64,000 bases of DNA, taken from NCBI GenBank assembly GCA_000002435.2, contig CM018792.1. The stretch is one strand, 5' to 3'. A model generated the notes under the pieces. That model did not search any database and had not been told where the DNA came from. It worked only from the letters and a program-made list of their open reading frames with translations. Below are positions 56,272 through 58,779 of the stretch, one piece after another. A program made the position numbers and the translations under genes. The stretch is from Giardia intestinalis. Taxonomy: Eukaryota. How positions within the stretch are numbered: position 1 is the stretch's first letter; each line of letters opens with the position of its first letter.

Positions 56272-58779
56272 ATGAACTGGGCAGAATTTTCAAAAACCGC
56301 GGAAACCATAGCTGCGCTTACTCCTTTTACCCTGGCGCCACAACAGAGGGCTGTGACCCCGGTGGCTCCTTACATGGAGCTAGCCATCCTGAGTGGAGAG
56401 AGCATAGATACCGCTGGCTCGGGCCTTTCTGATGTATCGTGTCCTCCACTGTCAACTGTAGAGGCCCCAATCTGGGGGTCTTTAGCACTTTCCACATATA
56501 GTGATCGTGAGCCAGACCCTGCTCTTCGGGCTGCATTTCAAGCTTGGCGTGCCCAGGCAAAGATGAGGAGATTGATCCTAAAACCGTATAGACGCATTGT
56601 CCGGCGATGGCACCGTCTAACAGAAGAGTCTAAGCGAGGAGAAGTCGCTTGGTCATTTTATCGACAAGCACTTTTGCAGAAGGCCTTCAATTCTCTTTTG
56701 TATCGAGTTACCACTTGCACCCATCTCACCGCACGACTGGGGTTTAAAACTCTGAGGGATATTGCTACCATAAGGAAACACGAACGCGATGTGGCTGACG
56801 AATACTACTGTGCCCGTCTTTGTGCCAAGACTTTACGCGGCCTTTTTCAATCAATTACAAAGCGCTGCCGGATCTTTCTCCAAATCCAGAGGGCTCGCGA
56901 ACTGCGTCTTCTCTCTCATACGTTTAGGCACATGCGAGTCGAGGCGTCTCTCATTGCATTAGCATTTCGCATTTATCGACGCATAACACTACATAAAGTT
57001 GTTTCCATTTGGCGACGTATGCTGCGTATTCATGTGGTAGAACAGCGCGTTAACCAGGTGATCTTACGTCACTGCTTCATTAGGTGGCGGCACCGATACA
57101 GACGCAGTCTTGCGCTCTTGCGTGATATGTATGTCCGCCAGGGGTATGACGAAGATCTGGCGCTTACTCTGGCGATTGCTTCAGAGAACGTCTGCCTCTT
57201 GCTCCGCGCTTTCTATAGTTGGCTGAAAAGAACAAGACATAAGTTACATCAGAAAATGTTGCAATCCGTCATTAATGCATTTCAGCGACAGCATCTTTTG
57301 CGGTCTGCCCTATGCAGTATAACGGAGCGTTACAAAACGATACTGGCGAGACGCCAGGCTATTTCTTCGTGTCTGCAGTCTATTGATCGTCGAACTTTGA
57401 TCCTTACCCTCAGAAGATGGAAGGGCAACGCGCAAAGTGCTAAGATTGCCCGTATTTCTTCCAATATGGTCGCACGCGAGCATAACCTCCTAGTACAGGA
57501 ACAGGCTTTCTGTGCCTGGAGAGTTGCTTGGAATATGCATCGTACAGCAAGAGCAAGATATGGTCCACTTGCATCTTCTCTGAATAGGATTCTTGTGCGT
57601 TATATATTTCACGAGTTGCAACAGAAGTACGAGGAGAACCGCTGCCGATTGGAGCGGGCAACTGAATTCCACGAAATACTGGTGAAACAATCGCTACATA
57701 AAGTGTTTAGTGCCTGGTATGTACGTTTTCTAGAACAAGAAAACACCGTGCAATTTCTCAGCTCTATTGTACACACGCTGGCAGACAGAGCCTATGATGT
57801 CTGTCACACGCGGGTACTTCGTCCTGGGAAGTGGTTTCTCGATACTCCTTCTTATAGACTTCTACGGAAGGCTTGGGATGCTTCCTGGTGGAAGTACAAA
57901 AAGCGTTCTGCTTATAGAGCAGTTCTCTTGCAAGCAGACAAGGATTATAACAATAAAGCTCTTGTGCGCACATTCTCTACATGGAGAATTGAGACAAAAG
58001 TATCTATTCTTTTGGCAATCTGGTACCCCAGGATACTTAGTGGCACCTTCACAGCTTGGCGCCTGGCTGCAGAAGGAAGTCGAGCGATTGCCCTTATGGA
58101 GTCCCAAGCCAGAATGAAGCATGAATACTCTTTGATGCATTGGACTTTCTGCTACTGGAAGCACATACGCAAGGTCTTGTCCACAGAGCGCCAGCTAGAG
58201 CAGACAATCTACTATAGAAGAGCCACACACATCCTCATATTATCGTTTAGAAGCTGGCACGCTGCGTATCTTCAAGACGTATATCTTAGAGCCAAAGAGC
58301 AGGAAGTGGCAGCCTCATGGTCCCGAACATCCCTTGCTATTGCACTGCGCAGCATATGCGCGGCGTACCTTTCACGCTTACGCTTCAGGGCAAACAGGAG
58401 GAGAAACGTGTTCACTGAGACGCTCGAAGGAATAACCGCCAGCCTTTCTTCCATCTGCATCGGCCGTTTGCTACTGGACATCCGCACGGAGCACATGAGA
58501 ATGTTGGTCCATATCTCACCTTTAAGGGTCGGGCAAATAGTCAAGAGCCCAGTCGCTGCTGTGGTGTGTGATCAAGGGTCTTCCCTACGTAGCTCACCCG
58601 AGCGTTCGCACTGGGAAATATTACGGGGACATAGAGAGAAGTACAGGTCAACGTATGAAGAAGATAGCGTTGGGATCATCCCACACAAAGTCCAGGACTG
58701 CGGGGCTCGGCAGCTCATTGATATCCTTGACAACAAGATAGCAGCACTCGGTCATCGTCTGGCAGGATGTAGCCCATAG
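56272..58779 (+). CDS. Sfi1-like centrin-binding repeat protein (835 aa)
   Basis: At least 12 repeats spaced ~25-35 aa apart, each with an invariant Trp in an [FL]xxW[RK] context (FQAWRAQ, VSIWRRM, FIRWRHR, FYSWLKR, LRRWKGN, FCAWRVA, FSAWYVR, FSTWRIE, FTAWRLA, FCYWKHI, FRSWHAA). This is the Sfi1 signature. Confidence 0.45.
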   Translation: MNWAEFSKTAETIAALTPFTLAPQQRAVTPVAPYMELAILSGESIDTAGSGLSDVSCPPLSTVEAPIWGSLALSTYSDREPDPALRAAFQAWRAQAKMRRLILKPYRRIVRRWHRLTEESKRGEVAWSFYRQALLQKAFNSLLYRVTTCTHLTARLGFKTLRDIATIRKHERDVADEYYCARLCAKTLRGLFQSITKRCRIFLQIQRARELRLLSHTFRHMRVEASLIALAFRIYRRITLHKVVSIWRRMLRIHVVEQRVNQVILRHCFIRWRHRYRRSLALLRDMYVRQGYDEDLALTLAIASENVCLLLRAFYSWLKRTRHKLHQKMLQSVINAFQRQHLLRSALCSITERYKTILARRQAISSCLQSIDRRTLILTLRRWKGNAQSAKIARISSNMVAREHNLLVQEQAFCAWRVAWNMHRTARARYGPLASSLNRILVRYIFHELQQKYEENRCRLERATEFHEILVKQSLHKVFSAWYVRFLEQENTVQFLSSIVHTLADRAYDVCHTRVLRPGKWFLDTPSYRLLRKAWDASWWKYKKRSAYRAVLLQADKDYNNKALVRTFSTWRIETKVSILLAIWYPRILSGTFTAWRLAAEGSRAIALMESQARMKHEYSLMHWTFCYWKHIRKVLSTERQLEQTIYYRRATHILILSFRSWHAAYLQDVYLRAKEQEVAASWSRTSLAIALRSICAAYLSRLRFRANRRRNVFTETLEGITASLSSICIGRLLLDIRTEHMRMLVHISPLRVGQIVKSPVAAVVCDQGSSLRSSPERSHWEILRGHREKYRSTYEEDSVGIIPHKVQDCGARQLIDILDNKIAALGHRLAGCSP

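What the first reader, a model, noticed from the sequence alone, without database searches (positions are those of the whole stretch)
56272..58779. Candidate Sfi1 orthologue (centrin-binding repeat protein)
The 835-aa protein is built from at least 12 degenerate repeats with an invariant Trp in an [F/L]-x-x-W-[R/K] context at ~25-35-residue spacing. This is the pattern of Sfi1 repeats that bind centrin along an extended helix at basal bodies and centrosomes. Giardia has eight basal bodies and centrins, so a Sfi1-like scaffold is plausible.
Basis: partly seen in the sequence, partly recalled or inferred. Interest (0 to 1): 0.5.

Follow-up and report, generated by a model that had tools for sequence, protein, structure and literature searches.

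The report
Giardia Sfi1-type centrin-binding repeat protein

Summary
The ORF at 56272-58779 (+) is real. It is 835 aa and 100% identical to Giardia duodenalis GL50803_004819, publicly named "hypothetical protein".

The Trp-centred repeat is far beyond chance:
- [FL]xxW[RK] occurs 7 times against 0.6 expected.
- The reverse triad [LIVM]x3[LFIVMW]x2W occurs 11 times against 1.8 expected.
- 33 residues is the strongest self-similarity lag (z 4.5-4.9).

I count 19 good and 4 doubtful consecutive repeat slots over residues 85-745. Two runs are in exact 33-residue register. Only 11-13 slots carry Trp; the rest have L, I or M.

Evidence for Sfi1:
- Pfam Sfi1 matches above its cut-off (25.7 vs 22 bits), and 10 shuffled controls give no hit.
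- Giardia repeat profiles rank yeast Sfi1p (2GV5) and the human SFI1 peptide (2K2I) first among 177,635 PDB sequences.
- In a blind test, the charge-depleted columns are exactly the positions Li et al. 2006 flagged (10, 18, 19, 22, 23, 26, 30).
- The syntenic G. muris orthologue (24% identity) keeps the motif positions and the register.

IQ motifs, a coiled coil and POC5 are rejected.

Li et al. 2006 already used a Giardia Sfi1 sequence, and the protein already carries the Pfam tag. The verdict is therefore: interpretation supported, already known, experimentally untested, modest interest.

The parts
56272..58779 (+). Complete ORF, 835 aa plus stop. It is G. duodenalis GL50803_004819.
   Evidence: 100% identity, 100% coverage.
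56374..56376 (+). Alternative start codon (M35). The orthologues P0003 and P0004 begin here ('MELAIL').
   Evidence: The upstream DNA does not decide between the two ATGs.
56272..56523 (+). N-terminal non-repeat domain, aa 1-84. It is acidic (pI 4.1) and Pro-rich (9 Pro). It holds a conserved motif P59..E64-x-P66..S70-L-x-L-S-x-Y76..E80-P-D82 that is also kept in G. muris. Candidate anchoring end (inferred).
56524..57144 (+). Variable-length repeats, aa 85-291. Anchors are W92, (W113), L142, L161, I195, M221, W247, W272. Spacing is 19-34 residues. The best Pfam Sfi1 stretch (aa 170-279) lies here.
57145..57738 (+). First block of exact 33-residue repeats, aa 292-489. Anchors are W317, I350, W383, W416, L449, W482. 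The W / non-W pattern is identical in G. muris.
57808..57855 (+). Conserved helix break or hinge, aa 513-528 (RVLRPGKWFLDTPSYR, with P518, G519, P526). It is invariant among the G. duodenalis-complex orthologues, and W521 is also kept in G. muris.
57982..58476 (+). Second block of repeats, aa 571-735. Anchors are W596, W629, W662, I695, I728, each 33 residues apart. W571 lies 25 residues upstream of W596.
58507..58776 (+). C-terminal non-repeat domain, aa 746-835. It has two conserved predicted helices (776-796 with invariant W781; 810-831 with invariant L815, L819, D820, L830). Candidate tail-to-tail association end (inferred by analogy with yeast Sfi1p).
   Evidence: The analogy comes from PMC2063913.

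Best explanation
The gene encodes the Giardia member of the Sfi1 family.

Proposed architecture and mechanism:
- It is a scaffold of about 660 residues and about 100 nm, strongly basic (pI 11, net +77) and essentially one long alpha-helix.
- It carries 19-23 consecutive Sfi1 repeats.
- Each repeat presents the reverse hydrophobic triad L8-x3-F/L4-x2-W1, plus a small or hydrophobic residue 16 positions upstream of the Trp.
- One acidic centrin (Glcent1 GL50803_6744 and/or Glcent2 GL50803_104685) wraps around each repeat. Its C-lobe sits on the triad and its N-lobe on the upstream half.
- Where repeats are 33 residues long, successive centrins are rotated about 60 degrees and can contact each other, giving a centrin-Sfi1 filament.
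- By analogy with yeast and human Sfi1, the filament would sit at the basal bodies and act in their duplication, cohesion or segregation. The conserved acidic N-terminal motif would be the anchored end and the conserved C-terminal helices the free or associating end.

Shown here: the repeat anatomy, its statistical significance, its match to Sfi1 at the level of individual repeat positions, the orientation of the triad, the helical and low-proline character, and evolutionary constraint on the motif positions.

Inferred, not shown: centrin binding, stoichiometry, localisation and function.
For: Family match:
- Pfam Sfi1 is above its gathering score, is recurrent in the orthologues and is absent in shuffles.
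- Motif enrichment and lag-33 periodicity.
- Repeat map with exact 33-residue runs.

Specificity of the motif:
- The reverse triad occurs 11 times vs 1.8 expected, while the forward triad occurs once vs 1.7 expected. This matches the L8xxxL4xxW1 orientation specific to Sfi1 (PMC3871271 abstract; PMC9406199).
- Blind test: the seven columns with the lowest DEKR content are 18, 19, 22, 23, 26, 10 and 30. These are exactly the consensus and charge-depleted positions of Li et al. 2006.
- Giardia repeat profiles rank 2GV5_C Sfi1p (E = 0.22) and 2K2I_B SFI1 peptide (E = 0.15) first of 177,635 PDB sequences, aligned in register.

Structure and composition:
- Only 5 Pro in 661 residues, and the AF2 secondary structure is helical over 83-746.

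Conservation:
- The syntenic G. muris orthologue is 24% identical overall, but 44% identical at motif positions against 21% elsewhere (p = 9e-5). Its own strongest lag is 33, and it has the same 66-33-66 Trp spacing.

Biological context:
- Giardia centrins are at basal bodies.
- Li et al. 2006 used a G. lamblia Sfi1 sequence in their repeat logo, and reported 20-24 repeats in all complete Sfi1 proteins.
Against: - The Pfam score is marginal. Two orthologues fall just below the cut-off and G. muris gives no Pfam hit.
- The PDB profile hits are individually non-significant (E = 0.15-0.22).
- An exhaustive profile search of 1.84 billion proteins found no non-Giardia relative, so homology to Sfi1 rests on the repeats alone.
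- Eight of the 19 good slots lack the Trp. Trp is invariant in TgSFI1, and mutating it to Ala weakens binding.
- Kilmartin's A-x12-[FL]x2W[KRH] heuristic gives 2 hits, not the 3 it asks for.
- The helix is interrupted at 513-528.
- The AF2 model has low confidence (pLDDT 38.6).
- My repeat anchors were placed by eye.
- There are no experimental data on this gene in the searchable literature.
Confidence: 0.8

Rival explanations
1. It is a genuine Sfi1-repeat, centrin-binding protein but not the functional Sfi1 orthologue. It would be a lineage-specific paralogue-like scaffold, comparable to the Tetrahymena Sfr proteins or Paramecium PtCenBP1. It would build or organise another centrin-containing structure, for example the nuclear Glcent2 pool or flagellar-associated fibres, rather than license basal-body duplication.
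For: - Sfi1-repeat proteins form multi-member families with different locations in ciliates (references).
- Sfi1 termini carry no cross-kingdom homology, so orthology cannot be read from sequence.
- Glcent2 is also nuclear.
- Many slots are Trp-less, and there is a conserved hinge.
Against: - The repeat number (19-23) and the 33-residue length match canonical Sfi1, which has 20-24 repeats. They do not match the few-repeat or giant relatives.
- No paralogue was detected by the exhaustive profile search.
- There is a single syntenic copy in G. muris.
Confidence: 0.13
2. It is a basic helical protein whose Trp-containing repeats resemble Sfi1 repeats by convergence or composition. It would bind something other than centrin, for example microtubules, nucleic acid or another EF-hand protein such as calmodulin.
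For: - The composition is very basic and rich in Arg and Leu.
- The database scores are marginal.
- There are no detectable relatives outside Giardia.
Against: - Shuffles with the same composition never hit Sfi1.
- The enrichment is specific to the reverse orientation of the triad.
- Three positions not used to define the repeats (10, 22, 30) behave exactly as in Sfi1. The chance of this is about 1 in 3654.
- No IQ motifs are present and no other Pfam family matches.
Confidence: 0.05
3. It is the Giardia POC5 homologue. POC5 is another conserved centriolar centrin-binding protein with Sfi1-like repeats.
For: - POC5 contains Sfi1-like centrin-binding repeats that follow the same [FWL]x2W[RK] tandem pattern.
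- A G. lamblia POC5 homologue exists (PMC2700515).
Against: - POC5 has only three centrin-binding repeats, flanked by short coiled coils, plus a 21-aa signature.
- This protein has at least 19 repeats over 660 residues and no heptad periodicity.
- Pfam assigns it to Sfi1.
Confidence: 0.01

Closest known systems
Human SFI1 (hSfi1; centrosomal, binds centrin 2/3)
   Same: - A long continuous array of about 20 repeats, predominantly 33 residues long.
- The reverse L-x3-L/F-x2-W triad followed by a basic residue.
- Low proline content.
- Non-conserved N- and C-terminal domains.
- The Giardia repeat profile's best PDB hit is the human SFI1 R17 peptide bound to centrin 2 (2K2I_B).
   Different: - The Giardia protein is shorter (835 vs 1242 aa).
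- Only its C-terminal two-thirds is in 33-residue register.
- Eight of the 19 good slots lack Trp.
- A conserved Pro/Gly hinge splits the array.
- No sequence similarity is detectable outside the repeat motif.
S. cerevisiae Sfi1p (spindle pole body half-bridge; crystal structures 2GV5 and 2DOQ with Cdc31p)
   Same: - The AX7LLX3F/LX2WK/R-type repeat.
- About 21 repeats.
- Variable repeat lengths (23-36), like the N-terminal third of the Giardia protein.
- Some repeats lack Trp.
- 2GV5_C is the rank-1 PDB hit of the first Giardia repeat profile.
- The Pfam Sfi1 model matches.
   Different: - The yeast repeats are of variable length throughout.
- Giardia has no spindle pole body. The presumed site is the basal-body complex.
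- The roles of the termini (N at the central plaque, C-C association) are only an analogy here.
Toxoplasma gondii TgSFI1 and Plasmodium Sfi1-like protein (PfSlp)
   Same: They are divergent protist Sfi1 homologues that were recognised only through their repeat organisation. They co-localise with, or bind, centrins at the centrosome or centriolar plaque.
   Different: TgSFI1 is 3903 aa, has 32 repeats with an invariant Trp, and has large disordered extensions. The Giardia protein is compact and has many Trp-less slots.
POC5
   Same: It binds centrin through Sfi1-like repeats. It is conserved in Giardia and is centriolar.
   Different: It has three repeats only, coiled-coil flanks and a 21-aa signature. 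That architecture is not found here.
Myosin IQ-repeat lever arm (calmodulin or light-chain binding)
   Same: It follows the same general principle: a single alpha-helix decorated by a row of EF-hand proteins. Li et al. 2006 make this comparison.
   Different: There is no IQ consensus in this protein (0 matches strict or relaxed) and no Pfam IQ hit. The light chains cover about 20 residues and bind in the opposite orientation.

Membership tests
Sfi1 (Pfam PF08457; Kilmartin 2003; Li et al. 2006) | Match to the curated family profile above its gathering score. | tested here: met
   The window protein scores 25.7 bits against a cut-off of 22, E = 5.4e-6, with 4 stretches. The orthologues score 34.7, 21.6 and 17.6 bits, and G. 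muris gives no hit. None of 10 shuffled controls hits, even at E <= 10. The match is marginal but order-dependent.
Sfi1 | Tandem centrin-binding motif [F/W/L]x2W[K/R/H]-x21-34-[F/W/L]x2W[K/R/H], with at least 2 hits (Kilmartin's ScanProsite criterion). | tested here: met
   3 hits, starting at aa 380, 593 and 626. 0 of 3000 shuffles reach this number. The criterion is quoted.
Sfi1 | Reverse hydrophobic triad L8-x3-L/F4-x2-W1 in each repeat (the LL-x3-F/L-x2-W core of the consensus). | tested here: met
   The reverse triad occurs 11 times vs 1.8 expected (0 of 3000 shuffles reach 11). The forward triad occurs once vs 1.7 expected. In the 19 good repeats, position 19 is 95% hydrophobic, position 23 is F in 15 of 19 (L or V in the rest), and position 26 is W in 11 of 19 (L, I or M in the rest).
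Sfi1 | Small or hydrophobic residue (consensus Ala) at repeat position 10, which contacts the centrin N-lobe. | tested here: met
   Position 10 is hydrophobic or small in 17 of 19 repeats (p = 2e-4). It is Ala in 5 of 19, against a 10% background. The stricter search heuristic A-x12-[FL]x2W[KRH], which asks for at least 3 hits, gives only 2. Kilmartin 2003 itself notes that the alanine is 'sometimes not as prominent'.
Sfi1 | Depletion of charged residues at repeat positions 22 and 30 (Li et al. 2006, Fig. 1 legend). | tested here: met
   Position 22 has 0 of 19 DEKR residues (p = 0.003). Position 30 has 2 of 19 (p = 0.10). The background is 26%. These two are the lowest columns after the consensus positions.
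Sfi1 | Repeat length of 33 residues in non-fungal eukaryotes. | tested here: met
   Lag 33 is the strongest self-similarity lag (z = 4.5-4.9). Nine inter-anchor intervals are exactly 33. G. muris also has 33 as its top lag. The N-terminal third has variable lengths of 19-34, as in fungi.
Sfi1 | About 20-24 continuous repeats forming one low-proline alpha-helical region. | tested here: inconclusive
   There are 19 good and 4 doubtful slots, placed by eye. The 661-residue region has 5 Pro. The AF2 secondary structure is helical over 83-746, but pLDDT is only 38.6. A conserved break lies at 513-528.
Sfi1 | Direct, multi-site binding of centrin. | not testable with these tools
   The candidate partners exist: Glcent1 GL50803_6744 and Glcent2 GL50803_104685. 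Testing needs pull-down, ITC or native mass spectrometry.
Sfi1 | Localisation to the microtubule-organising centre (spindle pole body, centrosome or basal body). | not testable with these tools
   No localisation data for ORF 4819 were found in the searchable literature.
POC5 | Exactly three centrin-binding repeats (one tandem pair) flanked by short coiled coils, plus a 21-aa signature. | tested here: not met
   This protein has at least 19 repeats and no heptad periodicity (period 7, p = 0.56).
IQ-motif calmodulin or light-chain binding proteins | IQ consensus [FILV]Qxxx[RK]Gxxx[RK]. | tested here: not met
   0 strict and 0 relaxed matches. No Pfam IQ hit at E <= 10.

The most novel reading that the evidence does not exclude
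The pattern of Trp-bearing and Trp-less repeat slots (for example W317-I350-W383-W416-L449-W482) is conserved slot for slot between G. duodenalis and G. muris, although the two proteins are only 24% identical. A conserved Pro/Gly hinge also splits the array.

This may mean that the Giardia filament is not uniformly coated. It could carry a fixed code of strong and weak sites, or of sites specific for Glcent1 and Glcent2. Such a patterned two-centrin filament would be a new variant of the Sfi1 mechanism. It might relate to how eight non-equivalent basal bodies are tied to two nuclei and inherited.
Probability: 0.12. Interest if true: 0.55.

Novelty: already known. Interest (0 to 1): 0.27.

Why it matters
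Giardia must duplicate and partition eight non-equivalent basal bodies and two nuclei. Its two centrins affect the cell cycle, yet no centrin-binding scaffold has been studied in this organism.

GL50803_004819 is the obvious candidate. The residue-level repeat map, the hinge and the conserved terminal motifs given here define constructs for binding and localisation experiments.

As a discovery it is not new. The Pfam tag is public, and a Giardia Sfi1 sequence was used in Li et al. 2006. What it adds is confirmation that the canonical 33-residue Sfi1 repeat reaches back to one of the most divergent eukaryotic lineages.

Tried and rejected
- **PDB with full-length queries.** phmmer with the full protein and hmmsearch with the full-length orthologue profile found nothing.
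- **Fetching reference Sfi1 sequences.** I tried to fetch human and yeast Sfi1 through the search for homologous proteins. A 31-aa published human fragment was too short. The padded human fragment and a 40-aa yeast fragment had no indexed match.
- **Exhaustive profile search.** The search of 1.84 billion representatives returned only Giardia sequences, so there is no bridge to other eukaryotes.
- **Structure.** The AF2 model has pLDDT 38.6. Only its secondary structure was used, and fold search was deliberately not run.
- **Literature.** The supplement of Li et al. 2006, which would name the Giardia accession, is not held. Lauwaet 2011 and Hodges 2010 are not held. Searches for GL50803_4819 or 4819 found nothing relevant.
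- **Other negative tests.** The Fourier test of hydrophobicity at period 33 was not significant. There are no DNA tandem repeats and no Rfam hits in the window.
- **Rejected alternatives.** IQ-motif protein, coiled coil, POC5, and a pure composition artefact.
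Full report
**1. The observation**

The window holds an ORF at exactly 56272..58779 on the + strand, encoding 835 aa. The protein is rich in R (12.5%), L (11.9%) and W (2.9%, 24 residues).

- [FL]xxW[RK] occurs 7 times against 0.60 expected; 0 of 5000 shuffles reach 7.
- L-x3-[FL]-x2-W occurs 8 times against 0.42 expected.
- Relative to Trp, L dominates at -7, F at -3 and R/K at +1.

A BLOSUM62 lag-autocorrelation has its single highest peak at lag 33. The z-score is 4.5 for residues 85-740 and 4.9 for residues 300-740. Both exceed the 99th percentile of the per-shuffle maximum over all lags. Trp pairs at multiples of 33 are also enriched (10 vs 2.9 expected).

- Counted generously there are 13 Trp-anchored repeats. 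The large gaps between them (45, 66 and 89 residues) are filled by repeats that keep L(-7) and F/L(-3) but have L, I or M in place of Trp. This gives 19 good plus 4 doubtful slots across residues 85-745.
- The register is exactly 33 residues for anchors 317-350-383-416-449-482 and 596-629-662-695-728. Before residue 300 the spacing is variable (19-34).

The anchors were placed by eye, which is a limitation. There is no DNA-level repeat, so the array is ancient and degenerate.

**2. Identity of the gene**

The protein is 100% identical to G. duodenalis GL50803_004819. Its public name is "hypothetical protein", and it already carries a precomputed Pfam PF08457 tag.

The rest of the window is unmistakably Giardia: a VSP, beta-giardin/SF-assemblin and DNA polymerase epsilon.

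Orthologues at 82%, 67% (GL50581_2737) and 64% identity exist. An exhaustive HMMER search of 1.84 billion representatives with their alignment found only six sequences, all Giardia. One of them, P0007 (774 aa), is encoded in the G. muris assembly GCA_006247105.1 in conserved synteny. The SF-assemblin gene, the divergent RING-finger gene and the small downstream gene are all in place.

**3. Is it Sfi1-like?**

Several independent lines agree.

(a) *Pfam.* Sfi1 is the only family hit, at E = 5.4e-6 and 25.7 bits against the curated cut-off of 22. It is also the best match in the three G. duodenalis-complex orthologues (34.7, 21.6 and 17.6 bits), although the G. muris protein gives no hit. Five global and five within-33-residue-block shuffles of the protein never hit Sfi1, even at E <= 10. 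The match therefore depends on residue order, not composition.

(b) *Published criteria.* Kilmartin's tandem pattern [FWL]x2W[KRH]x21-34[FWL]x2W[KRH] needs at least 2 hits and gives 3. The A-x12-[FL]x2W[KRH] heuristic needs at least 3 hits and gives only 2 (criteria quoted).

(c) *Orientation.* Centrin targets carry a W1-L4-L8 triad. It runs forward in XPC and reversed (L8xxxL4xxW1) in Sfi1 (PMC3871271; PMC9406199). Here the reverse triad occurs 11 times against 1.8 expected (0 of 3000 shuffles reach 11). The forward triad occurs once against 1.7 expected.

(d) *Blind positional test.* Li et al. 2006 reported consensus positions 10, 18, 23 and 26, and unusually few charged residues at positions 22 and 30. 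I numbered the 19 good Giardia repeats the same way. The seven columns with the lowest DEKR content are then 18, 19, 22, 23 and 26 (0%), 10 (5%) and 30 (11%), against a 26% background. Positions 10, 22 and 30 played no part in placing the anchors. The chance that the three lowest of the remaining 29 columns are exactly these is 1 in 3654. Position 10 is small or hydrophobic in 17 of 19 repeats (p = 2e-4).

(e) *Solved structures.* A profile of 18 Giardia repeats has as its best hit, among 177,635 distinct PDB sequences, the yeast Sfi1p chain of the Sfi1p-Cdc31p crystal (2GV5_C, E = 0.22). A deeper profile of 65 orthologous repeats has as its best hit the human SFI1 peptide solved with centrin 2 (2K2I_B, E = 0.15). 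Both are aligned in register on the triad. Each E-value alone is not significant, but the specificity of the two top ranks is.

(f) *Physical character.* The repeat region has 5 prolines in 661 residues, a pI of 11.0 and a net charge of +77. AF2 predicts nearly continuous helix over residues 83-746, although at low confidence (pLDDT 38.6). No heptad periodicity and no IQ motifs are present.

(g) *Constraint.* Among the four close orthologues, the motif Trp residues are invariant. Against G. muris (24% identity overall), the motif positions are 44% identical against 21% elsewhere (Fisher p = 9e-5). They are 82% hydrophobic against 45% elsewhere. The G. muris protein has its own top lag at 33 and the same 66-33-66 Trp spacing.

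**4. Mechanism**

The best-supported model is the Sfi1-centrin filament of Li et al. 2006. In this model a single helix of about 100 nm (661 residues x 0.15 nm) is decorated by acidic centrins. One centrin binds per repeat, with its C-lobe on the L-F-W triad and its N-lobe on the upstream half around position 10. The 33-residue spacing places neighbouring centrins about 60 degrees apart, so that they touch.

Giardia has two centrins at its basal bodies, and both affect the cell cycle (PMC12307541). That paper does not address an Sfi1 partner.

Three conserved non-repeat features are candidate functional sites:
- The acidic N-terminal motif (P59...E80-P-D82), a candidate anchoring site.
- The C-terminal helices (W781; L815...L830), candidate association sites.
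- The Pro/Gly hinge at 513-528, which splits the array into about 14 and about 7 repeats.

Centrin binding, stoichiometry, localisation and function are all inferred.

**5. Differences from known Sfi1 proteins**

- Eight of the 19 good slots lack Trp. In TgSFI1, Trp is invariant in 32 of 32 repeats, and mutating it to Ala weakens binding. Yeast Sfi1p also has a few Trp-less repeats.
- The W / non-W pattern is conserved slot for slot in G. muris. This leaves open a patterned or two-centrin occupancy.
- The protein combines fungal-like variable repeats at the N-terminal end with metazoan-like 33-mers at the C-terminal end.

**6. Rivals**

- A lineage-specific Sfi1-repeat protein with a different role, like the ciliate Sfr and CenBP1 proteins, cannot be excluded. 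Orthology is not readable from the Sfi1 termini. However, the repeat number and length fit canonical Sfi1, and no paralogue was detected.
- Convergence or composition is made unlikely.
- POC5 (three repeats, coiled coils and a signature) and IQ proteins are rejected.

**7. Novelty**

Li et al. 2006 built their Sfi1-repeat logo from sequences that included Giardia lamblia, and stated that all complete sequences have 20-24 repeats. This protein also carries the Pfam Sfi1 tag in public collections. I could not retrieve the supplement to prove that it is the same ORF, but no other candidate was found.

No paper in the searchable library mentions ORF 4819 or a characterised Giardia Sfi1. The finding is correct but already known bioinformatically. 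It remains experimentally open. Interest is modest.

Noticed in passing
window 12339-20633 and 37535-45829: This is an 8,295-nt perfect (100%) inverted repeat with 16,901 nt between the arms. Both arms are about 67% G+C, against about 45% for their surroundings. They contain real-looking genes: an ankyrin-repeat protein at 17926-20175 and a WD40 protein at 13545-15257. It is not rDNA, since the window has no Rfam hit. The possible explanations are a very recent duplication, gene conversion, or an assembly artefact. The high G+C is unexplained.
   Followed up: partly
window 56272 vs 56374: The start codon is ambiguous. The annotated 835-aa product starts at 56272, but the assemblage-B orthologue (GL50581_2737) and P0004 start at the equivalent of M35 ('MELAIL', ATG at 56374). 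Residues 1-34 have no aligned counterpart. The upstream DNA shows no decisive A/T-rich initiator for either ATG.
   Followed up: partly
window 52631-53449 (+), 53468-55915 (-), 58784-59269 (-); L001 2972-8800: The gene order is conserved between G. duodenalis and G. muris: beta-giardin/SF-assemblin (272 aa, Pfam E = 1e-106), a divergently transcribed C-terminal RING-finger protein (815 vs 722 aa), the Sfi1-like gene, and a small convergent gene of 154-161 aa with no Pfam family. The convergent small gene ends only 4 nt after the Sfi1-like stop codon.
   Followed up: partly
protein P0005 (public collection) vs window 57535-58117: A 193-aa public protein is a frameshift chimera. Its first 122 residues equal residues 422-543 of the Sfi1-like protein. 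It then continues in the reading frame of the spurious ORF 57767-58117. The likely cause is an indel error in some assembly, not biology.
   Followed up: no
window 59333-63109 (-): This 1258-aa multi-pass membrane-looking protein has a weak, sub-threshold Prominin match (23.5 bits against a cut-off of 34.3). It was not examined further.
   Followed up: no
window 1821-3776 (+) and 4204-11976 (+): There is a VSP-family gene (Pfam VSP, E = 7e-39) next to the DNA polymerase epsilon catalytic subunit. This is ordinary Giardia content and confirms the source organism.
   Followed up: no
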